Position numbers and translations under genes: made by a program. A DNA stretch of 63,614 nt, filler included, from Jimgerdemannia flammicorona (lineage: Eukaryota): NCBI GenBank assembly GCA_003990765.1. It is 3 parts of 3 records of this genome, joined end to end, with 100 filler letters (N's around TTAATTAATTAA, not from the genome) between each part and the next. Parts side by side here need not be neighbours in the genome. Positions count along the whole stretch, not along the records: positions 42,481 to 63,614 come from RBNJ01001521.1; 2 more parts are not named here. One strand, given 5' to 3'. How positions within the stretch are numbered: the stretch's first letter is position 1; every line of letters starts with the position of its first letter. The notes beneath the pieces are model-generated. The model saw nothing but the letters and a program-made list of their open reading frames with translations, was not told the DNA's origin and did not search any database. Shown one piece after another: positions 35,724-62,050 of this stretch.

Positions 35724-35761
35724 ATATACTTGATCACTATATCTGAAATACTTATACTTAC

Positions 35762-36293
35762 AAGCTTACAAGTCTGCAATTCTGTAAGCAATAAGTATAA
35801 GCTAAGAACTTTGAATATTATAACCTACAATTCTATAGACAATAAGCATAAGCTAAGAGCTTCAAATATTGCAAAAGAGTAAAAAGTATAAGCTAAGAGC
35901 TTCAAATATTGTAATAAGAGTAAAAAGTATAAGCTAAGAGCTTTAAATATAATAATAAGTGCAAGCTCATAATCCTATGAGTAATAAGTATAAGCCAAGA
36001 GCTTTGAATATTGCAATAAGTATAAGTCCACAATCCTGTGAGCAATAAGTATAAACCAAGAGCTTTGAATATTACAACAAGTATAAGTCTGCAATCTCAT
36101 AAGCAATAAAAGCCCACAAGTCTTAAATTATATGAACAATAAGTATAAGACAAGAGCTTCAAATATTACAACAAGTATAAGCCTATAATTCTATATACAA
36201 TAAGTATAAGCTGAGAGCTTTAAATATTACAATAAGCATAAGCCTATAAGTAATAAGTATAAGTTGAGAGCTTCAGATATTACAACAAGTACA
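35762..36293. repeat. Minisatellite of ~16 units sharing CAATAAGTATAAG, largely alternating ~32-bp and ~29-bp subunits
   Basis: A = caataagtataagctaagagcttcaaatattg; B = caataagtataagtccacaatcctgtgag; variants mostly transitions. Confidence 0.85.
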
Positions 36294-36621
36294 GGTAAAA
36301 TGTATATATAAATAAGCTGACTTTAATAATAAAAACCACCCTAAAAACCAAAAATCAAAAAATGTTCTCACTTTATAAAAAACTTTAATTCTATATTAAT
36401 TATCTTTTTAGAGCCTTTGAGGATATGAACAATACTATCAACAAGATAGTTATCTGATTGGATGATGAAGAATCTAAGACTGATGATAAATATAAGAAGA
36501 AGAAGATTAAAGAAGTAATTAAGTAATTTATCTCAAAGACTATATCTGAAGCTACTCCTTAGACAGCTTCTGAAGTCTCTACTCCTGAGATCTCTGAGAT
36601 CCCTGAAGATATCACCCAAGC

Positions 36622-39600: not shown

Positions 39601-42380
39601 TGGGGGTCCATTGGATGAGATTGAAAGAGGCTACAAAGGTCTATTGGGGAGAAGCTGGTTGAGAAGTGGGGAGACAGAGGAGGAAGTGCACAAGGTGTGC
39701 TTCCAGCAGACTGAGGAGATTGCAAATGGATTGGGCAGATTTGCTTTCTTCAGATGGGGTGGAGGATTGGAGGATAGAGCAGGCAAAATTGGAGATAGTG
39801 GAACTGTAACAGGTATTGAGAGAGGAGGAGGAGACCCATATGTGAGGCATGGCTGCTAGACTATGGTAGCAGGGACTTGAGGAGGGTGAGCAGCCTACTA
39901 GATACTTATCAAGACTCCTCAAAGCTAGGAGAGTGCGACATTGGTGGGATGGGGTCCTGGATGCCGATGGGGACATAGTACATAGAACACAATAAATCCT
40001 AGGGGTTCTGAAGGCAAGATGGCAGGGTTTGTAGAGTGAGGGAGAAGGGGGTGCTGATGAGGTGGTGATTGCAGATACACTAGAGGAGTGGGGGCCACCA
40101 CAAGTAGACAGACTGTGTGACTTGATCTTACCAGTGCAAGGAGAGGAGATCCAGAGTGTCCTGGCAGCAACTAAACTTGGAACAGCGCCAGGGGAGGATG
40201 GATTACCATGGGACTTCTGGAAGAAGATGGTGAAGGTCTCCGGAGTTTTGGGTGAGATGGCTGCTCTCTGTGACTACATTCTTCAGAGTGGCAAGTGAGT
40301 GGGAGAGCAGGACCTTGGGCTAGTGGCCTTATTGTACAAAGACAAGGGGAGGAGGGAAGACTGGAAGAACTGGAGACTGATCATGCTTCTGGATATGGAC
40401 AGGAAGATGGTGACTAAGATGATTGTCACAAGGCTGCAGAAAGTTGCCCAACAGGTGCTGGGAGAGGAGCAGCAGAGCTTTGTTGGGGGCAGACTTATAA
40501 GGGATGAGACTGCATGGGTGCATGGGGTCATTGAAGGGACTCGGGCTTGTGGACTGAATGGAAGGTTGGTCTTTTTGGACCAAGAGAAGGCTTATGACTG
40601 TGTATGGCAAGTTTGGCTGGGCTAGGTTTTGGATCAAATTGGTGTTCCCTCAAGATTTTGGGCTTTTATATTGAATCTGCTAGAGAGCAGTTGGGCAGTG
40701 CTGATGTGTAATGGTCACCATGGTCTGGCGTTTTCCTTGGGGAGAGGAGTACCTCAGGGGGACCCTCTGTCCCCTATCCTCTATGCCCTTTCATTAGAGC
40801 CATTGATGGATAGGATTCGCCGGAAGGTGGCAGGGCTCTCTATATATGGTATAGTGTGGAAGGTGGGGGCCTTTGCTGATGACATAGTGGTTGGACTTGG
40901 GTCTGTGGCAGATGTTGAGACACTTAGGGAGACAGTAGAATGATATGAGGCTCACTCTGGGGCGAAGCTCAACTGGCATAAGTGTGAGATGATAGTGCTG
41001 GGGAATAGACTAGTGGGTGGGGACATCATTGGAACAATTGTCCCTACTGGTGAGGTGGTGCAGTACCTGGGTATCTTTCTTTCTATATATGGTTCTGTCT
41101 TGCCACAAGTGTGGTGGGAGAGCAGGGTGACCATTTGGGGAGAGGCCCTTCAAGATTGGGGAGGCTGCCATATTTCTCTGGTAGGGCAGGTTTCAATTCT
41201 GAATGTATACTGGTTCCCCAAGCTGTGGTATGTGGCCTATCACCTAGACTTCCCAGCTTGGGTGGTGAAGAGGCTGACAAAGGTGGCTAGAGATTGGATT
41301 TGGGCAGAGAGAAGGTCCCAGATCAGTTGGGATACTCTTACAACACCAGTGGTCAGGGGAGGACTTGGCCTTGTGGATTTCCCTAAGCAGTTGTACTGCT
41401 TGTGAGCCTGGTGGTTGAAGAGAGCTGCTGAATTGCAGAGAGGAGGTTGGGTGTCTCTGTTGCAGAAGGTGTGGGAGATGAGAACCTCCCCTCAAGGGTC
41501 CTCTGGAGATCTGCTCTCTTTGATAGGGTTGAATGGAATTCGGTAGCTGTAGTTTAAGAGCTTTTGGTAGGGAGTGGTAGATGGAGCACACCGAATTGGC
41601 CTACACTGGCAAGGTAATGAGAGGGAGGTGATGTGGGGGCCTTGTATGTGGTGATGGGATAGACTGCTCCTGGGGGGTGCTTCTCTTACAATGTTTGATA
41701 TTGGGGATGGGGTGGAGTATCAGCAGGGTCTTGGCCAGGATCTTTGGCCAAGTGGCTGGCAGGCAGCAGGGATCGGTAAGGAGTGGGACTGGGCAGGTAT
41801 CTGGTCCTGGAGTACTGAGGTGTGGCAGTGGCTTCCTCCCAAGTTCTGGGTGGTATGGTGGAGAATGCTGTGGAGGAATGTCATGTTGAATTTCCATACT
41901 GGGCATCTAGTAGATGGTGGCCATTTTGATTGTGAGGAGTGTTATGATATTGAGCAAGCTGGGGATTATGTGCAGATGCCAGAACATTGGTTGGGAGAGT
42001 GTGAGGTTCTGGGGGAATTTTGGGTAGAAATAGGGAATAGACTGGGTATGGGGCATAGGCCAGTGAGGGAGGGGGGCCACTGGGAGGACTTGAGATCTCA
42101 GCTTATGGGTGGGGTGGGTGATAGTTGGCTTACTGTAGGGTAGGTATTAGCAGTATGGGTGGGACTGGCAGGACATTGGCTTTTTGTATTTAAGGAGGGG
42201 TGATATTTGGGGCTGCAGGAAAAGATATCAAGGTGGGAGGAGTTGTTGGGAGATCTGCTAACTGGATGGTGGGTGGGTTGGAGTCCTCAGGGAGGGCGAA
42301 GGCACAGTTTAGTGGTAAGGATCTATGAGCAGAGTGGTGAGAGGGTGGAGATTGTGTTAAACAAAGTAGTCTTTCATCAG
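36622..42380 (+). mobile_element. L1-clade LINE family A, copy 2, near full length: ORF1 ~36706-38730, ORF2 ~38763 to gap (APE, RT, Cys-rich domain); multiple stops
   Basis: APE: SLNVNGLR, DFN, TRIDW, WSDH. RT: APGEDGL, LDQEKAYD, GVPQGDPLSP, AFADD, YLGI. C-terminal CEEC..EHWLGEC. Confidence 0.92.
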
Positions 42381-43849: not shown

Positions 43850-45057
43850 ACTAACCCCCAATCTTGTAATTTGCCTCTATTGAGCCAAGCATATTATAAT
43901 ATGCTTATATTTCTTGTATATTTTATTCTCTTTTTTATATATAAGTATTATGATATTCTAGACTAAGTTGAGTCAGAAGGTTGTATGATTCAACATCAAT
44001 TTAGCTATCTTATATACTAGATATGAATTGATAACTGCCACATCTAACAACTAAAAGAAGAGTAGCATTTAATTCTGACAAGCTGTAATTTGCATATGAT
44101 AGTGCTCTCAATATTGATCAATAATATCAATACCTCTCATATGATAATTGTAATCATTGATGATCTTGAGAATTGCTATGTTGGCTTGAGATTTATCTTC
44201 TCAGATTTTTTAAACTTAAGGCTTATTGATATTGATAGATCTTAGATAATAATATTTACATTCTACTTCTCATCTAGCTTTAATTTTATAAATAGTAGCT
44301 AGTATAGTAATAATGCTATTATCAATCCACAGTAGTGTGAGAATATTGTTGACAATAATACCTGATGTAGTATTTCAATTAAGCATTAAAACAGTCTGTT
44401 TATCAACCTTGAGTTGTATTGGGAATTTTTTTGAATCTGTCCTAACTATTTCACATATGCTGATTACTTTGGATTAAAGATATTTAAATAGCTGAATACT
44501 AGAGAAGTAATTGTCTATATATATGTTGAATGCTTGAGCTTTCTATAGTAATTACTTAGTAAGATAAATTATACCACATATAGTTTCACTGAGTTTGTAT
44601 TTACCTTTACTGACTTTTTTTATCTCTCTGTTATCAGAAGTATGAAAAAGTAGAAGAAATGACCAAGTATAGCTAAAATCACCAAGGTGAGGATTTTGAA
44701 CTCTTTTTTAATTAGCTTTCCTTTTATATAAAAGATATGTATACTCTTTCTTAAGAAAATTATCATTATTTCATCAATAGATATATTTGACTTTAGTTGG
44801 TATATCTTTTGAGAGATTGCCTGAATGTATAACAATAATGGCTCAACTTTTGAGTAATAGTATATCTTTTTCATTAATATCTTTTTCACTGATATCTTTT
44901 TCACTAATACTAGATAGAAAAAAGTGAAGGTATCATCTGATTTATTAAAAGTAGATTAACATCATATACTTCAGCATTTAGTAGATTGGTCTTCAACTAT
45001 CTCTACTCTACTAACTTTCTATATCTCTATAGTAGAAAAGACTAAGATAAATAGCAG
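43850..45057 (-). mobile_element. piggyBac-type transposase pseudogene, catalytic/C-terminal part
   Basis: KVEPLL..ISIDEIMIIF..H..IKGK, IYMDNYFSS, WIDN, DYNYHMRGIDIIDQ, LLDVAVINSY. Termini not located. Confidence 0.85.
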
Positions 45058-48000
45058 TAGAGAAGGAGGGCCCAGCAGGAGCCAGGGGAGTGAATCTAGA
45101 AACAGTATCAAAGTGAATAGATGATATATAGAAGAGTATGTATAAGGGGGATGAATAAAGAATATAATCAAAAATATATCAGTTGTTTATTACTATGTAA
45201 AAACACAGTCCTTATATATAAAATACAATATCCCAAAAGGGAGAACATGCCACAACTCAGAGTGAACTAAATTAGAAATCACATGACTGCCAGAGATAAG
45301 TAGAGATAAAGGGGAAGCCAATCTCAGTTATAGAATAAAAATCACAAACAAATACAAACAAACAAATCCAAATCCAAATTGAGATTAAAAAACATCCTTG
45401 CCCCCTCTGGGGTCTTGTGCTCACTTTGGAGTCTTGGCCTTACTCTACTCCTCTCCACTGCCTTCAGTTCCTTGCTTTACTTAGGCTCACTGTGGCTTGC
45501 TCCATTTTGACCTCACCCCTCACTCACACTCACCTCTCTGGGGTCTGTGGATGTTTTTTAATCTTGATTTGGATTTGTTTTGTTTGTGTTTGTTTGTAAT
45601 TTTTATCCTACAACTGAGATTGACTCCCCCTTTATCTCCACTTATCTCTGGCAGTTATATGGTTCCTAATTTGGTTTGCTCTGAGTTGTGGCACATTCTC
45701 TCTTTTGGGACATCATATTTTGTATATAAGGACTATGTTTTTATATAGTAATAAATAGCTAATGCATTTTCAGTTATGTTCTTTATTTGTCCCCCTTATA
45801 TATACTCTTTTACATGTCTTCTATTTGCTTTAATACTGGTTCTGAGTTTGCTCCTCTGGCTCCTACTGGACTCTCCTCCTCTACTGTTATACTGTCTGCC
45901 CTCAGGGCCTCTGTCTCCATTGACAAGATTATGGATAAGGTTCTTCCTCCTCTCTCTCCCCCACTTTCATCTCTACTACTGTCTTATTTAAGACCTATAT
46001 CTTATCTGCTATTCTTTCCCTCCCTCTAGACCTTCATCCCTCTGGTCATCTACTCCTTTCTCAGTTCTGGTCAGTCCTTGCCCTCTCTGTCAAGGAGGCT
46101 TGTCTCCATCATAACATCAATGTCATCACTCTACCCACTATCCACCACTCCATTCTCTCTGAGGCCCACTACCAAGTCCTCTCTAAAGAGGTTCATGCTA
46201 CCATCACTGCCACTAAGCTTGCTACTACTGATGCTGCTACCACTACTACTACTACTGCTTCCACCTCCTTCCACCATACCTGTACCTCTTTTGTGGTCCT
46301 TGCCTCCTCTCACTTTGTGGATACTACCCCTTTTTGTAACTTTACCATCTAAGATGTTCTCTCTGCTGCTATTGACATTAACACTGTTTGTTGCTTCCTC
46401 CTTGCTGGTACCTCTTTTGTCACTCATCTTTATGAGTAAGAAATGTCACATGCTGCTGCTGCTGCTCATACCACCACCACTGCTCCTCTGCCCACCTCTC
46501 TCAAGGTTTTGGTCTCTGAGGCCACCCATGTCAAGGCTTGTACCACTGCTTGTGCTGAGGTTTGTTTTTTTGCTATTGCTACCACCAAGGCCCCCACCAA
46601 GGCCTACACTAAGCCCAACAAGACTTTGTCAATCTCTTCTTAGTTCTCTTCTCCCACTAAGACCTTCTCCTCCATTCTTCCTGCCCTCAAGCATGGCTAC
46701 CAACTTAGTTCTTGCCCCATTGGGGCCTGGCCCTATGCTGTCTGCTCCAGTCACCTCCACCATGCTTACTGGCACCTGGCCAAGTCCATCTGCCTCCATA
46801 GTAGTGTCCCTCATACTGCTGCTCCTTTGGCTGCTCACTTACCTTCTGCCTCCTCCACCAGCTTCTCCTCCACCTCCTCTACTTATGCCCCTGAATGTAA
46901 GAGCTATATAAAAGCCTATGGCTGCAAGGTCTGTAACTCTAATAGAGTGTGCTCCTGCTCATTGGGCTTGCTGCCTTCAAAAAAAGTCAGAGGGAAGGGG
47001 AAGGCCTCCTGCTCTTAAACTTCTCTCTAGTATAGTTCTCTCCTGGTGTCCTTATTCTTTCTCAGATTCCATCATCACTTCTGGTATACCCTGAGTGGTT
47101 TCTCATACTGTCCCCCCTTTACTGTTCCCAGTTGCTTGTCTCAAACTTTCAGATTTATTCTTCTCTTAGAACACTTTTATCTCCTTCTTTTTCTTTAGCT
47201 GACTGCCCCCTTTCTCCCCTTTAAGTCTTTGCCTTATTTTTGGATCCTCACTTCATTTTTCTTATGACTCTCTCACAATTATCCTTCACTGACCTGGCTT
47301 ATCTTACACACTTTCATCATACTCTTGACCTTGCCATCTTCTTTGAGAATCATGGTAAGATGCCCTCTTACTACTATGTTCCTAGCAATTGGGTCTCCTC
47401 TCTCAATGTCTCTTCACACTGTATATTTCTTGACATGGCTTGCTCACTGTCCATTCCTGGATATACTCACTCTTGCTTAGTTTCAGACCATACCATGCAT
47501 ACTGCACTTAAATCAGTCAAGCAATTGCCTTTACACTTGCTTATAGTCACTGATAAGAATCAGGGTTTTACACTTATTCCTAAGTCACTCTACCTTGATG
47601 GCCTTTTTGCCCTCCTTCAAGCCATGGCTTATAAGTCTAGTACTCTTGAATTAGATGAGATTCTCACTCTTCTTTGGATTTCTCTGGCTCATATCAGATT
47701 ACTTTTAGATTCTCCTTTTGTGAACTCTATTTTTAACTTCTTCTAGGACTCTTTGTCCTTACTAGACATTTGTCTTCCAGTTTTTTATACTTTTCTTAAA
47801 GTCCACAAGCCTACTTTGGCTTAGTATCCCATTATGGCTGCTTATAGCTCACTCTCTACTAAGATTTTGAAGTAGTTATCCCACTTCTTTCTCTTTTGGA
47901 TAGCTCTTCTTCAATACTATATTGGGTCTGAGTATACAATTCTTTATAATACTCAGGAGCTCATCCTTCTCTGCTCCACCATTATGTCTATTTACTATTT

Positions 48001-49764
48001 TTCTCTTTTTTTTTTTTTTTTTATAACCTCTTAGACTCTTTTCTTTATTAATACAGCCATCTATTCTCTATATAATACACTAAGCCCACCCTATCTAATC
48101 CCCCTAGAGGGGCTCTCCACCCCTACTCTCTCTTGATTAAAGACTACTAGATCATTAATCACCTCCACCTGCCCACCACTCTATCTATAAATCTCTTCTA
48201 TCAAATGGTATCAATGCTCACCCTGGAGACTCCATCCAATCCACCACCCTATCAGTATATCTCCCATCAACCCCTCCCATCTTAATAATCTCTCCTACAA
48301 ATCCAGCTATCATCTTTTCTCAAAAATAAAGAGCCAATGTCTAGCTAGCTCTACTCATATAGCTAAAATCCACCCTACAGTGAGTCATTTATTGCCCACT
48401 CCACCCATCAACCTAGTTCTCAAATCTTCCCAGTGACCTCTCTCTCCATCAGATCTCCTCTTCACACCCAGCTAGTCCCCTACTACTATCCAAAAGTCCC
48501 TCAGAACCTCATACTCTCTCAGCCAATATTCTGGTATCTGCACAAATCTCTCAACTTGTCCTACATTATAGTATACTTCACATTCCAGTAGGCCACCATC
48601 CACCAGATGTCCAGCATGGAAATTCAATATGATATTTCTCTGTAGTATCTATCACTATACTATCCAGTACTTGGGAAGAAGTCATCTCTGTACCTCAGCA
48701 CTCTATACCCAGACTCCTGCTCAATCTCACTCCTTACCAATCCTCACTGCTTGCCAACTGCTAGGCCAAATATTCTGATCAAGTCCCCTCTGACACTTTA
48801 CTCTATTACCAATATCAAACTCAATAAGAGGAGTACTCTCCAGAAGCAGTTTGTCTCATCTCTATATAGCTAGTCCCTACAGTATTACTCCTTCATTACT
48901 ATATCAGTATAAGTCTATATAGTGTACTCTATCTGCTATCTCCCACCAGAAGCCTTTATACTGTAGCCAATGGCTTCTACCCAGGTTCACCAAGGAGAGC
49001 AAATCCCCTGAGGACCCTCTTGGAGAGAATCTCATCTCTCATACCTTCTGCATCAATAGCACCCATCTCCCTCTCCTCAGTTCCACAGTCTGCTTCAACC
49101 ACCAAGCTCTCAGATAGTGTAGTCTCTTAGGAAAGTCCACCAGCCCTAGCTTCTCTTAAACTACCAGCATTGAAATGATATCCTAACTGATCTGGAACCA
49201 CCTCTCAGCCCAAATCTAATCCCTAGCCAGCTTTATCAGTCTCTTTACCACCCAAGCTGAGAATTTCAAGTGATATGTAATATATCACAGCTTAGGGAAT
49301 CAGTAGATATTCAGAATTGTTACTCAGCCTACCAGAGAGATATGGCAGCCTCCTCAGCCTCAAAGTACCTCCCCCCAGATGGCCACCCTTCTCTCCCACC
49401 ATATCTGCAGTAAGACTGATCCATATACTAAAAGAAAAATACCCAGATATCTCATTACCTCTCCTGCTAAAACAATTGTTCCAATAATATCTCCTCCCAC
49501 TAATCCATTTCTCAGCACTATTGTCTCATATTTATACTAGTTGAGTTTTGCTCCAGAGTATACTATATACTATTTTACTATCTTCTTGAGAGTCTCAATA
49601 TCTGCTACTGATCTAAGTCTAACCACTATGTCATCTGCAAAAGCCCCCACCTTCTACACAATACTATAAATAGCAAGCTCTGCTACCTTCTGCTGAATTC
49701 TATCTATCAAAGATTCCAATGAAAGGACATATAGGTGGATCTCCCTGAGGAACTCCTCTCTCCA

Positions 49765-52700
49765 TGTAATAGTTCTAGTTTTTTTAAGAGAAAGCAGCTT
49801 AATCTGGAAGTTCTAGTTGGCCTAAAGTAGCTTGAAGAGATACTTAAAGGTTTAAGTGTTCTTGAAGGATTTCTGAGAGAAAATATTCTGAGCTTTATTC
49901 AGGTAGAGAATAAGGATATTTATATATAATCTAAAAGAAAGATCTGGAAGGATCTTGGAAAGAAAGAGAAATGCTAAAAAATAGATTCTTGGCAAAGCTG
50001 ACTAATACTATTCTACAATATTCTGAAAGGTTCTATGACTAGCTAAGACAAGATACTTGGTATCAAGGAAAGACAAGAATGTTCTAGTAGTATCTGGGTA
50101 TCGAGAGAAGGTTTTTAAGTAAGTAGAAGGTGGTAGAACATAGTAGAATGTTCAAGAAATGACAAGAAAAGACTAACTAAAAGATGCGAAAATGTACTAA
50201 GACTAAATATAACTGTGAAATTGTTATATCTCTCTCTTCTTAAGAACCAAAATTCTTATTGAGTTCTTAGGTAACATAAGACTAGATATACTTAACCAAA
50301 ATTTCTCAAACTTGTATCAGTGCATTGGTGGGGATTGACCATCCTTGTATAGAGCAGAGGGCCTATTATCAGACTAACTAATTGGGAGGGATTTGAACTC
50401 AGCTAGTAGCTTTATTTTAGTAGACTTCTTGTTTATTAAATGTTCTGTTAGTTCTGGGGTCCCAAAGTAAACTTCTGATATATAAGGTACTAGTCATTGC
50501 TATAGATTATCAATAATCCAAAGAAGTCACTATAGAGATTAGGCAATACATTTTGCCTTGAAGTCTTGAACTAGATCTTAAGAGTTCTTGAGGTTGACCA
50601 GTGGTTCCCAGATAGTATCATATTCAGGGTAACCTATCCACTTGACTAGGTATTCAGGATAGCAGTAGTGGATTCATTTGTTAAGAATTTTCTCTACTTT
50701 ATACTTGATATGGTCTTCAATAATTACAGGGGCAGAAGACTTAGAAATTCAACCAGAGTAGGGCAGTGACTAGTTCTAGGTCTTGAGGTGTGATACATGA
50801 AAGACTAGGTATACTCTCATGGTTTCAGGTAGCTTGAGACAGTAGGAGGATGCAGAGACTTATTCAGTGATCTCAAAAGGTCTAATATACTTAGGTTAGA
50901 ACTTGTTTGAAGGGTAGTTGACTTGAGATTATATCTTGAGGTTCTCAGAAGACAGTAGGACTTGATTTTCAACAGTATAAGTAATATCACAGTATTTCTT
51001 ATCTGCATACTTGGCTTGATACTATTGAGTCTTCTGAAGATTCACAGTGGCAATATTGAGTAGTTTGTCCATTTTGTCTATAAAGTTCTTAGTGGTTGGA
51101 ACTTGTATTTGACTGGTTTTCTTAAAAGAGAATAGACTTGCAGAGGTCTTGGAATCTTGACTATAGAGTAACTGGAAAGGGGAAAGACTAATAGATGATT
51201 GGATGGTATTATTGTATACAAACTCCACATAAGTTAGATAGTGGTCTTAATTATCTTGCTCATAAGAAATATAGTTTCTAAGCATTTGTTCTAAAGTTCT
51301 ATTCATGTGCTTGGTTTTTCCATCAGTTTGTAGGTGAAAGGCAGTAGATATAGCCAATTGGGTTCCAAGGGTCTTGAAGAGAGTTTTCCAGAAGTGACTG
51401 GTGAACTTGGGGTCACAATTACTGATAATTACTCATAGTAGGTTATAGTGAAGGAAGATGGACTTGAAGAAGATTCTTACAATCTCAGGTGCAGTAACAT
51501 TGATAGTAGTTAGTTCAGTAACCATAGTCTTAGTCAGATGGTCAATAAATATGATAATAGCATCAGTACTAGATTGAGTTTGTAGTAGTTGGGTTATAAA
51601 GTCCATGGTAACTTGCTTGAATTTCTTGGTGAGAATTGGCAGTAATTATAGCAAACTAGCTGATGCTTGGTTGATAGACTTGTTGTGCTGACATATATTA
51701 CAGCTGGCAATATAGTTCTTGATTTCCTTGACCATACTTGGCCAATAGTAGTAGTATTGAATATTCTTGACAGTCTTCTCAATTCCCAGGTAACTGACAA
51801 GAGGAGAGTCATAGTGTTCTTATAAAACCTTGTAGTATAGATTTATGTTTTCAGATAGGTAGACTTGATCTTGATGATAGATCAGGTTGTTCTTGACAGT
51901 ATATGTATCCTTGAGCTCATTCGAGAAAACTCTAGTGGTAACTGTATCTTCTTTGTAAGCTTGTCTGATTTGGTCTAGGAATTCTGATACCAAGGTGATC
52001 TGTATGATTGTGGCAAGGTCTGGGTATCTTGATAAGGCATCTGGTACTACAAATATCTTGCCAGGCTTGTAGATGATCATTGAGTTGAAGGTTTGAAGCT
52101 TAAGGCTCTACTTGACTTATAGATGTGACAGGGTAGATTGGGTGTTGATGTATTTGAGAGATTGATGATCAGTGATAACATCAAACTCAATACCTTCTAG
52201 ATAACATCACCAGTGATCTAGTGTATGTATTATTGCCAGTAGTTCCTTCTTATGAGTGGCTAGCTTTTGTTTAGCTAGAGCCAACTTGTGGGACTCAAAA
52301 GCAATAGAATGATGTTTTTTGCCATTATCTCTTATAACAGGACTGCTCTAATGATAAAATTTGACACATTAGTGGTGACCATGAATTTTAAGCCTTGATC
52401 TGCATTATGCAGGACTGGAGTATAGGTCAGGCAGTTCTTGAGTTCTTAAAAGGCTTGTTGACAGAAGAGGTCTCAGATGTAGGGTACATAGTAGTCTAAG
52501 TGCAGGGCCTTCCTCATAAGGTTAGTCAGTGGCTTGGCAATACCAGAGAAGTTTCTGACAAAGCAGCAGTAGTAGCTAGCTAGACCAAGGAAGGATTAGA
52601 GTTCTGTAAAGTTTGACAGAATGGGTCATTCTTCAATTACCTTTATCTTATATAGGTCTACTTGAATTCCTTGTATAGAGACAATATAGCCAAGATATTT

Positions 52701-55700
52701 GACTTGTTCCTTAAAGAATTCACACTTCTTGAGCTTAGCATAAAGCTTATATTTTCACAGGATCTCTAGGACTATTCAAATGTATTTGAGATGTTCTTCT
52801 TTAGTTGCACTAAAGATTAGAATGTCATCAAGATATACTAATAGGAAAATAAATAGTTAGTTCTTGAATATCTTGTTTATTAGGGTCTGGAATATGGTGG
52901 GTATATTGGTGAGATCAAATGCTAAGACCAGAAATTTGTAGAGTTCAAAGGGGGTTATAAATGCAGTCTTGGAAATGTCTTCTGGCTTGATTTGAATCTG
53001 GTGGTATCCTGACATGAGGTCTAACTTAGTGAAGTACTTGGTATTCTTGAGAGCATCAAAGATTTAATCAATCAAGAGTAGTAGATAGCAGTTCTTAACA
53101 GTGAGTTTGTTGAGTACATAGTAGTCTATGTATATTTGCAGGGTGCCATCCTTCTTCTTGATGAATAAGACTAGTGAGCTATAAGGAGATTTACTTGGCT
53201 GAATGGCTCCTTATACAAGTAGTTCTTCTAGTTCTTTTTTAACTGCTTCAATTTCAAGTGATGATATATAATACATATGTTTCTTAGGTAATATAGCTCC
53301 TGGAGTCAGTTTAATTTCATAATCAACTTCTCATATAGGTGGTAGACCAGGTAGCTTGTCTAGAAAGACATCTTTGAATTCTTCTAGTAGTAACTTGATA
53401 CTTTCATTGACTAATAGTCTCTTGTCTTATTTCTTAAAACAGACTATTACAATAAAGGTATATATTGTCTTCTTAAGTGCTCTCTTGTACTGTATAGCTG
53501 ATAGTATTGCAATCTGGATCTTGCTTATGGTCTTGTCTGTCTTGATAGTGATATTGGCTCCATCTTAGAGTAGGGTGACTTCATTCTTATACCAATTGAT
53601 GTCTGGATTGTATTTTATAAGCCAGGGTTTTCCTAAGATCAGATTATGATCTCCTAGTGATGCAACCTCAAAGTCTACTTGTTCCTAATATTTCTGGATC
53701 TTGATGGATAGTTTGGCAGCAATTGACTTGATGGGGTACAGAGTATCATCTGTAGTAACTATACTATTGTTCTTGGGTACAGACTTGGTAAGAATCTTGA
53801 GGCTTTTGATGAAATTCTGATTGATGAAGTTCCCTGTAGCTCTGCTATCTATAAGTACTTGAACTTCTTTTCCTTTGACTAGGCCTTTGAAAATGAGTAT
53901 AGCTTGAGCTCAATTTTCACTAAGACCTGCTGCTTGATCAGTGCTACTAAAATCTTTTTAATCTCATTTAGTCTCAAGGAGTTCTTGGACTTCTGTAATC
54001 TTAAGTTGACTGGCTTTTTCTAGGATCATTTGTGCAACTTGGTCTCCTTTCTTGACTGTGTAGTCTTGATCCTTCTGGTTGATAAGCAGAACTTGAACTT
54101 GTCTTTGAAAGTCTGGATCAATAACACTAGTATCTACATCTAAATGATATTTGATGCTAAGTCCTGATTACAGTACAATTCTGATATAATGTTCTTCAGA
54201 ACATTGAACTGCAATTCCAGTAGGTACCAGAGTTTGGCCCTTGGCTAGAATAGTGACTTGTTTGACTGAGTGTAGGTCAAGACCAATGGCTCCTTCTATT
54301 TGATATTGAGAGATCTGGGCCTTCAGATGAAGCTTCTTGATCTTAAGTCTGAGTTTACTGGTAGTAGGATTGACAGATGTGTCTTTGGACAATATGGTGA
54401 CTGGTCTTAAGAGTTCACTAGTCTTCTTAGGATATTTAGTTGTAATGTATCCTATTTGGCAATAGAAGAAATAGGCTCTGGATTTCTTCAGGTGGTCCTT
54501 TTCTTTAGGGATAAGCTTAGTGTTCTTTTTGTTTATGGTGTCTAAGTCTATTGGTGCTGGGCTAACTATCCTTGGTTGGTTCTTATGGTAGTTCTCAAAG
54601 TAGTTCTTCTTGTGGTGTTCTGGTTCAAAGCAGTTACTAAAGATAATAACATCAAACCTATCAGCAATTCTTATAGCTTCATAAAGATTTTTGGGCTCTT
54701 CTAGCTTGATCTTGACTTGTATATTTCCCTTCAGGTCTTGGATATAGCAGTCTATCTTTTTGTCCTCAGATATTGCTGGTAGCTCAAGTAGGATTGATAA
54801 GAATTGTATATTGTAGTTTTGCACAAACTTGAGTTACTTAATGTTTACTAGCTTGTCTCTGGCTAGTTTGGTAGTATTAGCAGACTTGAACTACTTGTGA
54901 AGGGCTCTCTTGAAGGCTTTCTAGTCTCTGATTCATATATATGAGTGTACAGAGGTAACTATGATATAATTGTACCACCAGATGGCTATATTTCCTTGGA
55001 GGAGTGTGGCAGCAAATTGAACTTGCATGTCTTCTTTCATTCTTATAAGCTCAACATATTGGTCCAACTGGAAGGTCTATGCATCTGTAAATAGCCCTCC
55101 TTGATAACTGTCAAAGATATCTGGCTTGAGTGGCTTAAAACTGACTAGTACTATAGCAGGATATAATGTATTCACAGTTCTTGTTTTTTGCTGTTCTAGT
55201 TATGCTTGAAGTTCTTGGATTTGGTGGGCTATAGCATTGATCATATCTTCTATATTGAGCTGTAATCCTCCTGCTTCTTCTGTAGCAGAGGGGTCTGGCT
55301 GATAGACTGACTCTTTGTAGCTCATTTCAGGTTCATATAACTATTTATGACAGGTTTCCAAATTTGTGTGAGGTTTCTTAATAAGGCAAGGTATAATGAC
55401 ACTACTGCTATCAAGTGTAATAGTTCTAGTTGGCCTAAAGTAGCTTGAAGAGATACTTAAAGGTTCAAGTGTTCTTAAAGAATTTCTGAGAGAAAATATT
55501 CTGAGCTTTATTTAGGCAGAGAATAAGAATATTTATATATGATCTGAAAGAAAGATCCAAAAGGATCTTGAAAAGAAAGAGAAATGCCAAGAAATAGGTT
55601 CTTGGCAAAGCTGACTAATACTATTCTAAAATATTCCAAAAGGTTCTATAACTAGCTAAGACAAGATACTTAGCACCAAGGAAAGACAAGAATATTCTAG

Positions 55701-55841
55701 TGGTGTCTGGATACTGAGAGAAGGTTTCTAAGCAAGTAGAAGGTAGCGGAATATAGTAGAATATTCAAGAAATGACAAGAAAAAACTAACTAAAAGATGC
55801 AAAAATGTACTAAGACTAAATATGACTATGAAATTGTTACA
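49765..55841 (-). mobile_element. Complete but decayed Ty3/Gypsy chromovirus: LTRs 55416-55841 and 49765-50228; gag-dUTPase-PR-RT-RH-IN-chromodomain
   Basis: Paired LTRs; decayed PBS (ttgatagcag); PPT aagaagagagaga; TSD ctcca/tctca (cccca in uninterrupted L1 copy 2); PR LIDSRATGNFI; RT YLDDILIF; chromodomain YKVEKIL..EYLVKWIGYPE..WEP at 50581-50703. Confidence 0.92.
53937..54350 (-). pseudogene. dut: dUTPase domain within the chromovirus polyprotein
   Basis: All five trimeric-dUTPase motifs, decayed but in order: GAIGLDL, L*SGL, TSVIDPDFQR, KGDQVAQ, ETK*D*KDFSSTD. Confidence 0.88.
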
Positions 55842-58800
55842 TCTCAAGGGAAATACCATATCCTGGTATCCATTACATATTAGTGCTACTCTACTACCCT
55901 CTAACAGATTCAATATAGAAGCTCAAAATAGTAGAGGAACTTCTATTCTATCCAGTATCTTGCCCAGCCACACCTGCCAAACATGATCATAGGTCTTCTC
56001 CTGGTCCAAAAAGACCAGTCTCTCATCCAATCTACTAGCTCTTATCTCTTCAATAATGCTATAGACTCAGGCTGTCCCATCTCTAATAAGTCTGCCTCCA
56101 ACAAAGCCCTACTGTTCCTTACCCAATACCTGCTGGACAACCCTCTGTAATATTGTCACAATTACCTTAGTCACTATCTTTCTGTCTATATCCAGAAGCA
56201 TAATCAGCCTCTAGTTCTTCCAATCCTCCCTCCTCCTCTTATCTTTATATAACAGGGCCACCAGCCCTAGGTTCTGTCCTCCCACTCACTGACTTCTCAG
56301 AAAAACAAAATCACAGAGAGCTGCCATCTCTCCTAATACTCCAGAGACCCCTACTATCTTCTTCCAAAAGTCCCAAGGTAGACTATCCTCTTCTGGTACC
56401 ATATCAAGCTTAGTTGCCACAAGGACTCTCTGGATCTCCTCCTCTTGGACTGAAAGAATCAAATCTCCTAGGCCCTCCACTTGTGGTAGCTCCCAGTTCT
56501 CCAGAGTGACTCTAATTGCCTCTGCATCAGCACTCTCTTCTTCCTCACTCTACAGACCCCTCCACTACTCCTTTAGCAACCCTAATATCTATTGTGTATT
56601 ATGTACTATTTCCCCCTTAGCATTAAGGACTCCATTCTACCAATGTTGTACCCTTCTCACCTAGAGGAACCTTGACAAGTACCTAGTTAGCCTCTCTCTC
56701 TCCTCAAGCCCCTACTACCTCAACCTAGCTGCCATTCATTTTATACATATCTCCTCCTCCTCTCTCAATACCTGTTGCAACTCTATTACTTCTAGTCTAG
56801 CTTGCACTAACCTCCAATTCTCCACCTCACTAGAGTTTATCAAATCAGCCCATTCTATTTGTAATCTAACCAGCCTATTGGAAGTATACCTTACTCTTTT
56901 CCTTCTTTACCTTCCAGCATCCCTACCAACTTCTCCCCAGTAAACCCTTACAGTCTCTTTCAACTTCATCTACCAGACATCCACTTACAAGACCTTATAT
57001 ATCTAGCTTATAATCTTCACCTAAATGTCCTCTATCCAAAGGTCCTATAATACCTTCTCAGTTAGTAGAGAGAAGTTAAGGTACTAATATCCAGATCTAT
57101 CTCCACTCTCTCCAAACTGTCCCTGTTCTAACAGTCCCCAGTGGTCTGACCATAGGCACCACTCTACCTCCAGAGTCCTCCAAACATCCAGGCCCCAGCA
57201 TTCAGCTATCAGTATCCAGTCAATTCTTGTACCAAGGTCATTCACTCAATATATATAAATTCTCTTTTCTCTCTACTATATTCTGCCCATATCCCCTAAG
57301 GAACTAAGGTTCTCCATCTCCTTCCATACATCCAGACTGCCACTCCTTCCACTAGCACTCCTCCCTCCATTAGTTCTATCTAACTGAAGATTTTACACCA
57401 TATTGAAGTCATCTTCCAGAATATCCACCCCATCCTCCAAGAATGTACCCTCATTCAGAAGATCCTTAATCCATATAATCTGATCACCCCTAGCTACTAG
57501 GTAGTAGTAAGAGTCAACTCTCACTGGCTCCCACTCAGATCAACACTATTTCCTCTACACCAAATATTCTTTCCAGCTTCTGATTCCGCCTAAATCCCCT
57601 TTATCTCTCTATGCCAAAATTGCCACTTTGTCAATCCAAGCTATAGCTCCTCTCCATTCTCTAGTCTACTCTACTTGATCTACATCATCCTCACAATGTA
57701 TATCCTGTAGCAGAAAGAGATCAGTCTCCAATCTCTTTAGTCAAGTAAAAATGTTCTTCTATTGCCCAGATTCTCATAACCCATTCACATTCAGAGAAAA
57801 AATGTTAGTTATACTATTCATTGGGAATAACATTTAAAAGTAGAGTCCTGCTCATTCTCTATAAATCCACATCCCTCTCCTCTTGTACTATGTCTAAGTT
57901 ATGTTTAGCAGCCAATCTCTCCTCTTTAGTCTCCTTTGCCTCCATTTCAATCAGAAGTTCAGCTATCTCTCCATTCTCCTTTTCTTCAAAGTCCTCATAA
58001 TATTCTAGGCAGACCTCTTGTCAGAGTTTCAGACCATAATGCTCTGCCCAACAGAAGGTGGTCCACTTACCAGCAACAACTACCAGCTCAGCCTCCCTCT
58101 CCTTATCAACCTCATACCCCTCTTCCTCTAGAAGAATTGCAAGCACCTCTACCTTCAGTGCCTCTACTACCTCATCACCATATAAGATCTGTGCCTAATA
58201 CTTCTTACTCATTACTCTCAGGTCCACTTCTCCCAACTCTTTAGTTATGAAGTTGTTCATCATCCAGCACATCTACAGTAGGTTTCCCACCTTTCCTCCT
58301 GGTGTTGCTAGCCTCCCAGCATCTAGTATTGTGGTATCAGCCCCTATACTCACAGTCTCATCCCACTCCTCCTCACCAACTACCACTACCTGTCCCCCTT
58401 TTGCTATGTCAGAAACTCCAAAGTATATTTACTGGGTACTATGCATTAGCACATCCTCTGCTACCTTGCTCCTCTCAACTAGATCCCTTCTGATAAGAGG
58501 AGGAGTGTCATTCAATTCCTCTTCCCAGACTTTGAATATACCATCAGTATAAGAGTTATTGTGCAGTATTATCCTGGCCCCATCCAGGCCCTCCTCTCTA
58601 TTCCCTCCTCTCTTACCAGTCCAGACATTCACTTTGGCACTTCCAGACCCCTCAGCTCTACCAGTATTCTTCTTCACCTCTTCTTTTATGCTTGCTAATA
58701 ACTTTCTCTGTCTCTTGCACCCTTGAGCCCTCTCTCACTGCCTCTTATCAGTATAAATATATTTTCCATCTACAATCTTCAAGTATATAGACTCTACATA

Positions 58801-61477
58801 TAACTTCTAGGCCTTCACTCTCTGCTCTACTGCTCCACTCATCTCCTCCAGAGTCTCCAACAGATCCTCCTCCTCCTTCTCACTCCCTTTTACCCTTGAT
58901 ACCTTACAGATAAAGGCCCCCTACAATATAACTAAAGGCCAGTCACTTATCTTCCCTATAGCCTCTCTCTCTATCAGTCTAATCCTGATATCAACATCAC
59001 CAGTTCTGAAAGTGGTCCCCTCTTATATCTGGAATCCAATATTGACTATATTGCCATAATCTGCTATCATCTCCTCCACTCTCTTCCTAGTCTCAACCTT
59101 CATCACTATAGACACCTCTTCACTAGTAACTGAATCACTCTGGGGTCCCACCTCAAACACTACACCATAGGGACCACTATCTCTCTCACCACTACTCCAG
59201 TCTTCAAAGCTTCCTTCAGTAGACTTACCTCTTTGAAACCCACCTCCACCCCCTCCAATTTCTTCAGAAACTTCACTGAGGTAGCTCCAGCCACTTGCTC
59301 TGAGATAATCCCTAGAATCATTCTTGCTATTACTACCAAGCTCCAGAAGTACAAAGTTACAGCAAACTCCAAAATCAACTTCTTGAGTAATGGTACCATA
59401 GTCAGTCCCATCATACCATCAGCCAGGTCCTCTTTTCTCTTTGGTCCCACCCATCTGATTCTACCATCAGCAGTCACATTTGGATTTTTTTTCAGATTCC
59501 CAGTTATGTCACTATCAGTAGTCCCCTCCCTACTCCTAGCAGCTACTCCACCAGCTCTTCCACCCACTAGCTGATGAGCTACATCTCCCACTTCCCCTTC
59601 CCTCTACTTTCTCTTCCCCTCTGTCTGTTCATCATGAGATCCAACAGACCATCTACTAGCCTTCAGCATATTGGCGAAGCTCCTCTCCTTCTGCCCTCCT
59701 ACTCCTCCTCTAGTGCTGCTACTACCACCTGAACTGCTCTGCCCACTCAGACCACCAAAAGACCCCATCTCTAATCCATACCCTCATCTAACATATTGCC
59801 AATCAAAGGCTCTAGGTCTATCTGATCTAGTATGTACATTAGCTTACTTATTGGTTACTATGACCTTAGTATCTTTCTCTAATAAATACTCTGAAAGTAT
59901 GTTATAAAAGTATATGTAACATAAGTTATAACTGAGAAAGGTATGCACCATTTTTCTCATTTAACCTCTAGTGACTTCTCTTCTTTCTATACTGCTATTT
60001 GTTTTGATGAGATCAATAATTATTTTCACTTCTTAGGTTTCATTGTTTTCTCTTTAGATTCCCCAGTTTTACTGGCTTCTATCATTAAGCTTATACTCCT
60101 TGTCTATAGCTCCAACTACTTTGAGTCAGCCCTTGGCTCTTTTCACCAGACTTCTGATATTACTATGAGAACAAATTGTGCCCTCACCCTTACCAATCTT
60201 GTTGATCTGGCCTATGAACTTTATGTGATATGTAATCATTCTTCATCTTTTTCCATTGCATTCTGGACTGGAGATATTTTTTTTCACTAATATATTGATG
60301 ACTTTATTGTTCTTACTATTGCTGGTATTGATATTCCTAGTGTGTTCCATAATATCTACCCTCTCTATTATTCTATTACTTGGGTGTAATATAACTAGTA
60401 TTCCCTTTTTGGACCTTTTTATTTCTCTTTCTCCCTTCCAAACTATTATTTATTCTTGTTTCCCCCATTCTCAACAGTTCTCTGACTTCCATTCTAATTA
60501 TCCTCATTATACTCTCTTTAAATGTATTCATGGTGAGGTTCATCATCTTGCTCTATGCTACTCCTATCATTCTGACTGAGTGTCTACTATTCAGGTCCTT
60601 GGCAACTTTGTGGTCCATCATTATGTCTACCCTATTTCTATTGTTCATGATCTGCTTGCTTCTGTCAAATGGTCTGTTGTTTACTCTTTTCTTCTCTCTC
60701 TCCATTATCCTCCTTTTCTTCCCTCCCTCCCTCCTTATCCTCTCTATACCCTCTCTTCATTCTCACTCCCAATTCTTATTATACTATTCAATTGTACTTA
60801 CTGAGTTACACAATGCCCTGATACCATCCTATACTCTTCTCTTTCTTGCCATAGACTTTTATCTCTTCCTTGATGCCCTCTGATTGCTTATTTGTATTTT
60901 TCTTCTGTTTTCTCTTTAATTCATCACTCTTGTTTTGTATTTTCATTACCTTCAGGTGCCTCCAGCTCTGCTGGAGAGGATTAAAAAACATTCTTGCCCC
61001 CTCTGGAGTCTCACACTTGCTCCAGGGTCTCAGCCTTACTCCACTCTTCTCTGCTACCTTTGGCCCCTCACTTCACTTGGGCTCACTGTGGCTCACTCCA
61101 TTTTGGCCTCACCCCTCACTTGCTCACCTCTTTAGGGTCTGTAGATGTTTTTTAATCTTGATTTAGATTTGTTTTGTTTGTGTTTATTTGTGATTTTTAT
61201 CCTATAACTGAGATTAGCTCCTCCTTTATCTCTACTTATCTCTGGTAGTCATGTGGTTCCTAATTCAGTTTTCCCTGAGTTGTGGCACATCCTCTCTTTT
61301 GGAACATCATATTTTATATATAAGGACTGTATTTTTACATGGCAATAAACAGCTGATACATTTTCAGTTATATTTTTTGTTTATCTCCCTTATATATGCT
61401 CTTCTATATATCTTCCATTCACTTTGACACTGGTTCTGGATTCACTTCTCTGGCTCTCACTAGGCCCTTCTCCTCTA

Positions 61478-62050
61478 ATACTGATAAATATAAGGAGTTC
61501 TAGAATTGTTAGACTATACTACTCTCTACCTCTTCTGGTATCCTTCATTATAGTATAATAGTTTGTATTAGCAATAATTTATTCCAGAAAAGAAGAGATA
61601 GAATATATTGATAATCTGTAGAATTTTACCTAGTGAGGTTATAATATTATCAGTAAGGTAAGAGTATAGATGTAAGAGAAAAGACTTGATATGTTGAAGA
61701 GATGTGAAGTTGGAAATCTTAAAAAGAATGAGTTTCTTGAAAAGAATGAATTGATCAATAGAAAGAATGAATTAATCAATAGTATCTTTTAAGTTAGCTA
61801 CCCTATACTTTATCTTTCTTTTGCTATTACTCTTATCAATAGATTCTTCAGGCTTATCTTCTTTAATAAGATCTTCCATAGTATTTTTGTTGTATAGTAT
61901 CAAACATTATTTGGATTATATCTTGAATTTGAGTTTGTCCTCTACTTCAGACCCACCACTTTAGACTTCACTTCAAATTTGAACTCATTACTGTCAGATT
62001 CATCACTATCAGATATATTATCACTATTAGCTAAAGCTAAAGAATTGCCT
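61478..62050 (-). mobile_element. piggyBac transposase pseudogene, N-terminal part
   Basis: LE*IIANTNYY..GRE*YSLTILELLIFISI continues into IYLSLF..IR*YLHF on the other side of the PLE (below 45057); acidic N-terminus. Right boundary approximate. Confidence 0.7.

What the first reader, a model, noticed from the sequence alone, without database searches (positions are those of the whole stretch)
45398..45548. Hidden cassette of GNA-triloop DNA mini-hairpins in the fold-back loop
Seen: aligning this loop with 60994-61142 gives about nine TG/CA column pairs that restore CpG, e.g. ctCGCGctCGctcCGgg, ctcCGctgccttCGgcccctCGcttc. On the cDNA strand the restored text gives GCC-GAA-GGC and probably GC-GAA-GC and GC-GGA-GC. 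A further hairpin ctccagc-tct-gctggag (60960-60976) sits just outside the stem. Established: d(GCGAAGC)-type GNA loops are exceptionally stable ssDNA hairpins found in ssDNA replication origins. Inference: the cassette works as folded single-stranded cDNA (RT stop, priming or protein-binding signal).
Basis: inference. Interest (0 to 1): 0.7.

Follow-up and report, generated by a model that had tools for sequence, protein, structure and literature searches.

The report
Folded DNA rod at retroelement junction
The stretch is the decayed start of a Penelope-like jumping gene in a fungus-like genome; in younger copies its DNA-copy strand can fold into one long hairpin built with G-A mismatches, and this hairpin sits exactly where two copies of the element are joined head to head.

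Summary
The motifs are real; the reading needs changing. 45383-45563 is the 5' end of the pseudo-LTR of an endonuclease-less Penelope-like retroelement (family A, 812 candidate places). A natural copy carries the CpG-intact text. It is not a row of mini-hairpins: the minus (cDNA) strand folds as one ~180-nt rod closed by a 15-bp inverted repeat, with a GC-GAA-GC tip and GA/GA or GNA/GNA internal loops (15 of 24 loop ends fit sheared G.A; 0 of 600 refolded shuffles). A second family (RT 43% identical) keeps the same rod with compensatory changes. Mini-hairpins alone are weak evidence; GC-GGA-GC is absent and the 60960 hairpin has no GNA loop. In 47 of 49 family-A fold-backs the head-to-head junction lies in the rod's base. 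Best model (0.5): two minus-strand cDNAs end in the rod and are joined there; single-cDNA snap-back is the main rival. Nothing here shows that the rod forms in a cell, or that it is DNA rather than antisense RNA. Palindromes at this junction are published for animal Penelopes; a G.A-laddered rod was not found in my searches. The scan noted this element before on other pieces of this genome.

The parts
45053..45397 (-). Inverted 5' arm: copy of pseudo-LTR positions 167-506 in opposite orientation; shares the 15-bp repeat with the direct copy
45383..45397 (+). Left arm of the 15-bp inverted repeat closing the rod; the head-to-head junction lies inside it
45398..45548 (-). Rod interior (the flagged loop); decayed here (82% to the intact copy); on the minus strand of intact copies short G-C helices alternate with GA/GA and GNA/GNA loops
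45474..45480 (-). Tip of the rod: GC-GAA-GC in intact copies, flanked by a tandem GA/GA loop; decayed in this copy
45460..45468 (-). GCC-GAA-GGC in intact copies; possible side arm next to the tip (inference; the predicted minimum-energy folds leave it in an internal loop)
45402..45412 (-). CCCC-GGA-GGGG palindrome; pairs with its partner at 45532-45544 as a GGA/GGA loop in the rod, or could extrude as a cruciform arm
45532..45544 (-). Second CCCC-GGA-GGGG palindrome
45549..45563 (+). Right arm of the 15-bp inverted repeat
45383..45885 (+). 5' pseudo-LTR (503 nt), ending about 20 codons into ORF1
45817..47018 (+). ORF1, decayed (422 aa in intact copies; Cys/His-rich C-terminal part; no Pfam family); start approximate
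46950..48005 (+). ORF2 (reverse transcriptase), N-terminal part with the DK motif; decayed; limits approximate
48006..59945 (-). Later insertion splitting ORF2: LINE-type element (endonuclease + RT) with poly(A) end, itself interrupted by an LTR element at 49809-55845; limits approximate
59946..60984 (+). ORF2, C-terminal part with YIDD motif and thumb; its stop codon lies inside the left repeat of the 3' cassette
60960..60976 (+). Small palindrome in the last ORF2 codons; loop is TCT/AGA, not GNA; not part of the rod
60979..61481 (+). 3' pseudo-LTR with the second, decayed copy of the rod cassette at its start

Best explanation
The stretch is the terminal cis-element of an endonuclease-less Penelope-like retroelement. 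Shown: in intact copies the minus strand can fold as one ~180-nt rod with a GNA-triloop tip and loops ordered for sheared G.A pairs; the layout is kept in a second family; every inverted junction examined lies in a paired stem at the foot of the rod; both outer ends of an insertion stop at the same template site (family A) or at the poly(A) site (family B). Inferred: the template is sense RNA, so the minus strand is single-stranded cDNA. Both DNA ends of a chromosome break prime reverse transcription at the same site of the element's RNA (5' or 3' pseudo-LTR copy). The cDNAs end at the rod, which protects the free 3' end and holds the 15-bp repeat ready; the repeat at the end of one cDNA pairs with its complement on the other, and each cDNA becomes the template for the other's second strand. 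That gives the head-to-head arms with one rod between them, facing either arm, and no target duplication.
For: Rod and loop order: 15 of 24 (A) and 10 of 18 (B) internal-loop ends on the minus strand put a 5' G opposite a 3' A; 0 of 10000 shuffles of the unpaired letters and 0 of 600 dinucleotide shuffles refolded from scratch reach this; plus strand 0 of 22 and 2 of 14. A and B cassettes are homologous (score 49 against -31 +/- 11); 6 of 18 aligned pairs change on both sides between families, four of them in helices that the single-family folds also have. GNA triloops are the only triloops that make the stable DNA mini-hairpin (PMC13037366); tandem GA between C-G pairs forms sheared pairs in DNA hairpins (PMC10085684); GNRA tetraloops are not enriched. 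Junction in the 15-bp base in 47 of 49 A fold-backs, one helix further in for 2; in B 22 of 29 in the outer and 6 in the inner part of the base. 188 of 189 whole cassettes follow either the body or an inverted arm. 50 of 54 outer ends at template positions 496-508, no consistent target duplication in 27 insertions. Two B fold-backs (L161, L169) join a short arm ending in poly(A) plus unique flank to a long arm that runs on into ORF1; one cDNA cannot template both. One A fold-back (L179) has arms of different haplotype, 7 of 19 sites. The rod faces the short arm in 6 of 32 asymmetric A cases. A Penelope RT extends both DNA strands from the same internal RNA site in vitro (PMC11167929).
Against: No experiment and no RNA data. 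The folding program's DNA parameters give GAA and TTC loops the same energy; both strands fold well above chance (z -4.25 and -3.20 as DNA, -7.80 and -5.36 as RNA for minus and plus), so energy does not single out minus-strand DNA. Only two families, one genome: six changes are six events, and the pairs were chosen on the same alignment. The two arms are nearly always one haplotype (1.3 against 5.6 differences in 48 fold-backs; 0-1 of 24-30 sites in 7 full dimers against 39%), and the short arm matches its own 5' rather than 3' pseudo-LTR in 5 cases; a single folded-back cDNA explains this more simply. 26 to 6 is not the even split that a symmetrical exchange would give. Loop inversion after insertion or by the assembler could make the reversed cases; 2 of the 5 poly(A) short arms end at a contig end and a third has a short partner, so the two-template evidence is two loci plus one. 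The apex 13-mer is not special to this element.
Confidence: 0.5

Rival explanations
1. Snap-back of one cDNA: the cDNA's 3' end closes the rod and primes plus-strand synthesis on itself; the second chromosome end then attaches at the usual initiation site on that new plus strand. The rod is still folded cDNA, but only one reverse transcript is involved.
For: Arms share haplotypes; short arm matches the adjacent 5' arm in L069, L180, L181, L187, L191; 11 of 49 A and 17 of 29 B fold-backs have two long arms; the rod faces the long arm in 26 of 32 asymmetric A cases.
Against: Cannot add poly(A) to a short arm whose partner runs into ORF1 (L161, L169) or give arms of two haplotypes (L179); needs a later inversion for reversed rods; no inverted copy of flanking DNA at the far ends. 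Both routes may be used.
Confidence: 0.25
2. The rod acts in an antisense RNA whose 3' end folds back and primes reverse transcription, as proposed for palindromes at inverted junctions of rotifer Penelopes.
For: Model stated in PMC3846280; the minus strand folds most stably as RNA in the program used (z -7.80); tandem G.A pairs also occur in RNA (own knowledge).
Against: Family B ends carry poly(A) in sense orientation, which points to a sense template; the tip is a GAA triloop in both families and GNRA tetraloops are not enriched; RNA versions of such mini-hairpins are much less stable (39.0 against 76.5 C for the tetraloop octamer, PMC13037366).
Confidence: 0.08
3. One reading: separate mini-hairpins (or a cruciform isomer) acting as RT stop or protein-binding sites.
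For: Four perfect C-GNA-G hairpins in A (17 of 2000 shuffles); tandem pseudo-LTR copies begin inside the rod at positions 23 and 37 (L014); mini-hairpins are protein-recognised in N4 promoters and lie in the RSF1010 ssiA origin (PMC13037366).
Against: Not significant in B (104 of 2000); all four folds of A give the rod; compensatory changes are long-range; 112 of 189 cassettes were read through.
Confidence: 0.07
4. The sequence works as double-stranded promoter or as sense-RNA structure; the G.A order is a by-product of a short-word, pyrimidine-rich sequence, and only the 15-bp repeat matters, for template switching by RT or host replication.
For: Plus strand also folds; the whole element is A-poor on the sense strand; some copies lose part or all of the rod interior (L093, L102, L198); junctions use the base, not the interior.
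Against: Loop order survives composition-matched controls and is kept across families that differ in the stems; fixed outer ends and poly(A) argue against host replication errors.
Confidence: 0.1

Closest known systems
Palindromes at the inverted pseudo-LTR junction of endonuclease-bearing Penelope elements, e.g. Pen2a_Av, Pen2_Av, Pen3a_Av of Adineta vaga (PMC3846280; passages and Discussion read)
   Same: Direct pseudo-LTRs that include the first codons of the ORF, an adjacent inverted copy overlapping by 15 bp, a palindrome at the junction, self-priming proposed.
   Different: There the palindromes are 18-38 bp, elements carry GIY-YIG and often an 8-10-bp target duplication; here a 180-200-nt interrupted rod with ordered G.A loops, no nuclease found, two ORFs, no consistent duplication. 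That paper says fungal elements lack this organisation.
Endonuclease-less PLEs: Coprina, Athena, PLE-X (PMC8557442 and PMC13159263; passages read)
   Same: RT without GIY-YIG; two ORFs occur in Athena and Coprina-1_Alen; Chara PLE-X families are dispersed.
   Different: No telomere-type repeats in 228 loci, no hammerhead core in the pseudo-LTR, hundreds of dispersed copies with head-to-head arms. Clade not determined.
Poseidon PLE of Anolis (PAc) in vitro (PMC11167929; parts 1-2 of 4 read)
   Same: Initiation at a fixed internal RNA site early in the ORF; both DNA strands extended.
   Different: PAc cuts its target and carries a hammerhead; the text read describes no cDNA rod and no joining step.
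DNA mini-hairpins and CGAG blocks: GCGAAGC, phage G4 origin, RSF1010 ssiA, N4 promoter (PMC13037366), AUTS2 CGAG hairpins (PMC10085684), GRA-triloop hairpins of archaeal diversity-generating retroelements (PMC4372165); passages read
   Same: Same local motifs: GNA triloop closed by C-G, tandem sheared G.A between C-G pairs.
   Different: Those are short signals for primase, RNA polymerase or target recognition; here they are built into one long terminal rod of a eukaryotic retrotransposon. Works-like only.
Terminal hairpins of parvoviruses (recalled, not looked up beyond a search listing)
   Same: Long imperfect terminal hairpin that primes DNA synthesis; two orientations of the loop; head-to-head dimers.
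   Different: No Rep/HUH nuclease or capsid here; the element is copied by a telomerase-related RT.

Membership tests
Penelope-like elements | RT of the PLE/telomerase type with GxKF and DK motifs and thumb | tested here: met
   Motifs in both families and in 84 relatives (motif names from PMC8557442); model pLDDT 90.2, best Foldseek match a telomerase RT (E 2.8e-8, TM 0.43) with viral polymerases close behind. No named PLE reference was aligned.
Penelope-like elements | Pseudo-LTRs, direct, with optional adjacent inverted copy and tandem arrays | tested here: met
Endonuclease-bearing PLEs (Penelope/Poseidon, Neptune, Nematis, Naiad, Chlamys, Hydra) | GIY-YIG domain | tested here: not met
   No GIY-YIG in ORF1 or ORF2 of A or B, found in relative P0032 in the same scan; ORF2 model has no extra domain. 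A divergent nuclease in ORF1 is not excluded (one search gave no family).
Coprina/Athena | Telomere association with telomeric repeats at junctions | tested here: not met
   0 of 228 loci hold three TTAGGG/CCCTAA units; flanks unrelated. The organism's telomere repeat is unknown.
Coprina/Athena | RT falls in the Coprina or Athena clade | not tested
   No named reference proteins were held.
PLEs with hammerhead ribozyme | Hammerhead core in the pseudo-LTR | tested here: not met
   No CUGANGA...GAAA core in pseudo-LTRs of 4 copies; the pattern finds one in control L073 (1 of 5 distant relatives). Rfam found none, also none in the control. Other ribozyme types not excluded.
DNA mini-hairpin (GCGNAGC) | GC-GNA-GC sequence | tested here: met
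   One per cassette, at the tip, minus strand, both families; 10 of 16 B cassettes picked by RT match keep the 13-mer and 6 differ only at CpG.
DNA mini-hairpin (GCGNAGC) | High melting point and nuclease resistance of the folded single strand | not testable with these tools
   The energy model has no such term.
Single-strand replication origin (G4, ssiA type) | Recognition by a primase | not testable with these tools
   No primase is encoded; no data.

The most novel reading that the evidence does not exclude
A fungal branch of Penelope-like elements that has neither nuclease nor hammerhead spreads to about a thousand dispersed copies by using a folded-DNA terminal rod: two cDNAs primed from the two sides of a break each finish in a rod held by sheared G.A pairs, swap partners at its base and prime each other's second strand. 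This would be a DNA-structure solution to second-strand priming and 5' joining in a retrotransposon, and would favour sense-template cDNA over antisense RNA in the open question of how Penelope inverted repeats arise.
Probability: 0.3. Interest if true: 0.75.

Novelty: new variant of a known kind. Interest (0 to 1): 0.5.

Why it matters
How Penelope-like elements make their inverted ends and prime the second strand is unsettled: PMC3846280 proposed self-priming on an antisense template and left it open, and the in vitro work in PMC11167929 stops at initiation. Here the junction element is long, strand-specific in its non-Watson-Crick design, present in many near-intact copies of two families, and free of nuclease and hammerhead, so DNA against RNA, and one cDNA against two, can be tested with an oligonucleotide and a purified RT. 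The layout itself is known, which caps the surprise.

Tried and rejected
Rfam on the window and on six loci: nothing near a curated score; it also missed the control core, so weak. Folding energies as a DNA/RNA or strand test: not diagnostic. Search for tip variants with GGA, GCA or GTA loops in the genome: 7 matches against 12 for the control, none in family A or B. Search for a third family: loci from two protein searches were all A or B (30 of 30, 30 of 30; only the best 102 of 957 and 71 of 685 candidates scored), and no other PLE RT lay in the loci held. Sequencing runs: no RNA holder listed; two contig sets laid, showing only that the family is present. Target duplications: none consistent. 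Wholesale homogenisation of arms after insertion: not seen, but CpG decay is shared somewhat more between adjacent arms (118 against 77.5 expected; distant pairs 267 against 224), so some conversion is possible. PDB sequence search: no match. ORF1: no family. Literature: searches found no description of a G.A rod or GNA triloop in a PLE; the supplement of PMC8557442 (584,176 characters) holds neither the 13-mer nor its complement, one 10-mer hit in what looks like coding sequence (line breaks could hide a match). The library lacks most subscription papers, and Repbase entries were not searchable.

Full report
Setting. The window joins three contigs with N spacers; the finding lies on contig C1521 of a 231-Mb assembly. 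Genes in the first contig look fungal (my reading of the ORFs; not tested). From 28 kb on, CpG is almost absent, as expected for methylated, decaying repeats.

What the element is. The loop sits between inverted arms (45051-45396, 45545-45890), and 45383-45883 recurs at 60979-61477. Between the two repeats lie a decayed ORF1 and an RT frame split by a later LINE-type insertion that itself holds an LTR element. Intact copies have ORF1 of 422 aa and ORF2 of 696 aa. ORF2 carries the GxKF-like, DK, MGT and YIDD motifs and the thumb of Penelope-like RTs; its model (pLDDT 90.2) best matches a telomerase RT, weakly and among other polymerases. No GIY-YIG domain was found in either ORF. The pseudo-LTR search gave 812 candidate places, 40 scored. 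I call this family A. A second family, B (RT 43% identical; 314 candidates), first appeared through a 13-mer search but also makes up 20 of the 30 loci fetched with a distant RT query, so it is not an artefact of the motif search.

The observation. GCC-GAA-GGC and GC-GAA-GC are on the minus strand; GC-GGA-GC is not; CCCC-GGA-GGGG occurs twice. The extra hairpin at 60960-60976 has a TCT/AGA loop in nearly all copies and overlaps the last RT codons. As separate mini-hairpins the signal is modest in A (17 of 2000 shuffles) and not significant in B (104 of 2000); C-GNA-G words are clearly enriched in both (2 and 0 of 2000). The sense strand is A-poor throughout, so the bare strand asymmetry is not evidence.

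The structure. All four folds of the intact A copy give one unbranched rod closed by 15 base pairs with the GAA/TTC triloop at the tip. For B the minus strand gives a rod under RNA parameters, while the plus strand and the DNA-parameter folds branch. On the minus strand the internal loops of A read GGA/GGA twice, GA/GA, GA/GAG three times, GA/GGA; those of B read GAA/GGA, GGA/GTA, GGA/GGA twice, GA/GA. Loop ends able to form a sheared G.A pair: 15 of 24 and 10 of 18, against means of 5.6 and 2.7 when unpaired letters are shuffled (0 of 10000 each), and 3.5 and 2.4 when the interior is dinucleotide-shuffled and refolded (0 of 600 each). The A plus-strand fold, which has no G.A to gain from, picks almost the same stems, so the register is not made by an energy bonus. 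The cassettes of A and B align; in a sequence-only alignment of 4 + 4 copies, 6 of 18 rod pairs change on both sides, and the loop in the outer helix is GGA in A and GAA in B. This is two families, the pairs were picked on the same alignment, and two of the six lie in helices that A's own fold does not share. The DNA parameters used score GAA and TTC loops alike, so the claim that the rod is DNA rests on published chemistry: only GNA triloops form the stable mini-hairpin, and the RNA form of the related octamer melts at 39.0 against 76.5 C (PMC13037366, section 2.3 and passages); tandem GA between C-G pairs forms sheared pairs in DNA hairpins (PMC10085684, passages). That symmetrical GNA/GNA loops are stable in DNA is recalled, not checked.

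Where the rod sits. Of 189 whole cassettes held, 112 follow the element body, 76 an inverted arm, 1 was unassigned; much of this set was collected by targeted searches, but the 30 cassettes in the motif-picked loci split 21 and 9 with none beside plain flank. Among 49 A fold-backs the junction is in the 15-bp base in 47 and one helix further in for 2; 26 have the rod facing a long arm with a short partner, 6 the reverse, 11 two long arms, 1 two short arms, 5 reach a contig or locus edge. Among 29 B fold-backs 17 have two long arms, and junctions fall in either half of the interrupted base. Outer ends fall at template positions 496-508 in 50 of 54 ends of 27 A insertions, without a consistent target duplication; B ends are at position 698 followed by poly(A). 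No telomere-type repeats were found in 228 loci and no hammerhead core in the pseudo-LTRs of four copies.

One cDNA or two. For one: arms share haplotypes (1.3 against 5.6 differences, 48 fold-backs; 0-1 differences in 7 dimers), and where an element's two pseudo-LTRs differ the short arm follows the 5' one in five cases. For two: L161 and L169 join a short poly(A)-ended arm with unique flank to an arm that runs into ORF1; L179 has arms differing at 7 of 19 sites; reversed rods exist. Three further poly(A) short arms are uninformative (two end at contig ends, one has a short partner). Because the A initiation site lies early in ORF1 it is present in both pseudo-LTR copies of one RNA, so two primers on one transcript would also give matching haplotypes; a Penelope RT does extend both DNA strands from one internal site in vitro (PMC11167929, parts 1-2 of 4). 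I therefore put joining of two cDNAs at 0.5 and snap-back at 0.25; together they make a folded minus-strand cDNA rod about 0.75 likely. All steps after the sequence pattern are inference.

Known and new. The direct-plus-inverted layout, a 15-bp overlap and junction palindromes of 18-38 bp are described for rotifer Penelopes, with antisense self-priming proposed and fungal elements said to lack the layout (PMC3846280, passages and Discussion). Nuclease-less PLEs, some dispersed or with two ORFs, are known (PMC8557442, passages; PMC13159263, passages). GRA-triloop hairpins occur in archaeal diversity-generating retroelements (PMC4372165, passages), and the tip 13-mer appears in a PCR primer used with the untranslated-region assay for a single-stranded DNA virus of pigs (PMC3222624, passages), so the motif is not unique. 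A preprint on retrozymes added nothing (10.64898/2026.07.22.740005, passages). Searches and the supplement search found no account of a G.A-laddered rod in a PLE; the library is partial. Earlier notes of this scan report the same cassette on other pieces of this genome; two of them judged the GNA motifs unimportant, which prompted the stricter control. I agree for isolated mini-hairpins and disagree for the loop order in the rod.

Verdict. Real feature, new variant of a known kind: the known junction palindrome of Penelope-like elements, here enlarged into a conserved rod whose design fits folded single-stranded cDNA. Interest 0.5.

Noticed in passing
L193-L198, L182; B loci L150-L177: Full head-to-head dimers of about 8 kb sharing one rod; arms identical at 0-1 of 24-30 diagnostic sites.
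   Followed up: yes
L123: An 830-bp insertion made only of two short arms around one rod, a possible non-autonomous form.
   Followed up: partly
L093, L102, L198: Copies that lack part or all of the rod interior, with breakpoints at short repeats on the two arms; may reflect slippage across a folded hairpin.
   Followed up: no
L014:2041-2990; L033: Tandem partial pseudo-LTRs that start inside the rod (positions 23, 37 in A; 28 in B).
   Followed up: partly
window 23636-27979, 36625-42379, 48006-59945: Three copies of a LINE-type element (endonuclease + RT) with one or two long upstream ORFs of no Pfam family; the two upstream ORFs are about 58% alike in DNA.
   Followed up: no
window 49809-55845: LTR element (LTRs 91% identical) with Ty3 capsid-like and dUTPase matches, nested in the LINE.
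   Followed up: no
L061:1533-2744, L071:2764-3957: ORF1 of both families ends in two Cys/His clusters; no family found; nearest Atlas clusters are unnamed, two from Basidiomycota, all below the reliable score.
   Followed up: partly
L073:195-222: A distant relative from a metagenome has a hammerhead-like core in its terminal repeat that Rfam did not report.
   Followed up: no
L201, L256, L276, L307: Viral contigs in which the tip word recurs with other GA-rich hairpin words on one strand.
   Followed up: no
window 35759-36296: Decayed tandem repeat of a 61-base unit upstream of a LINE copy.
   Followed up: no
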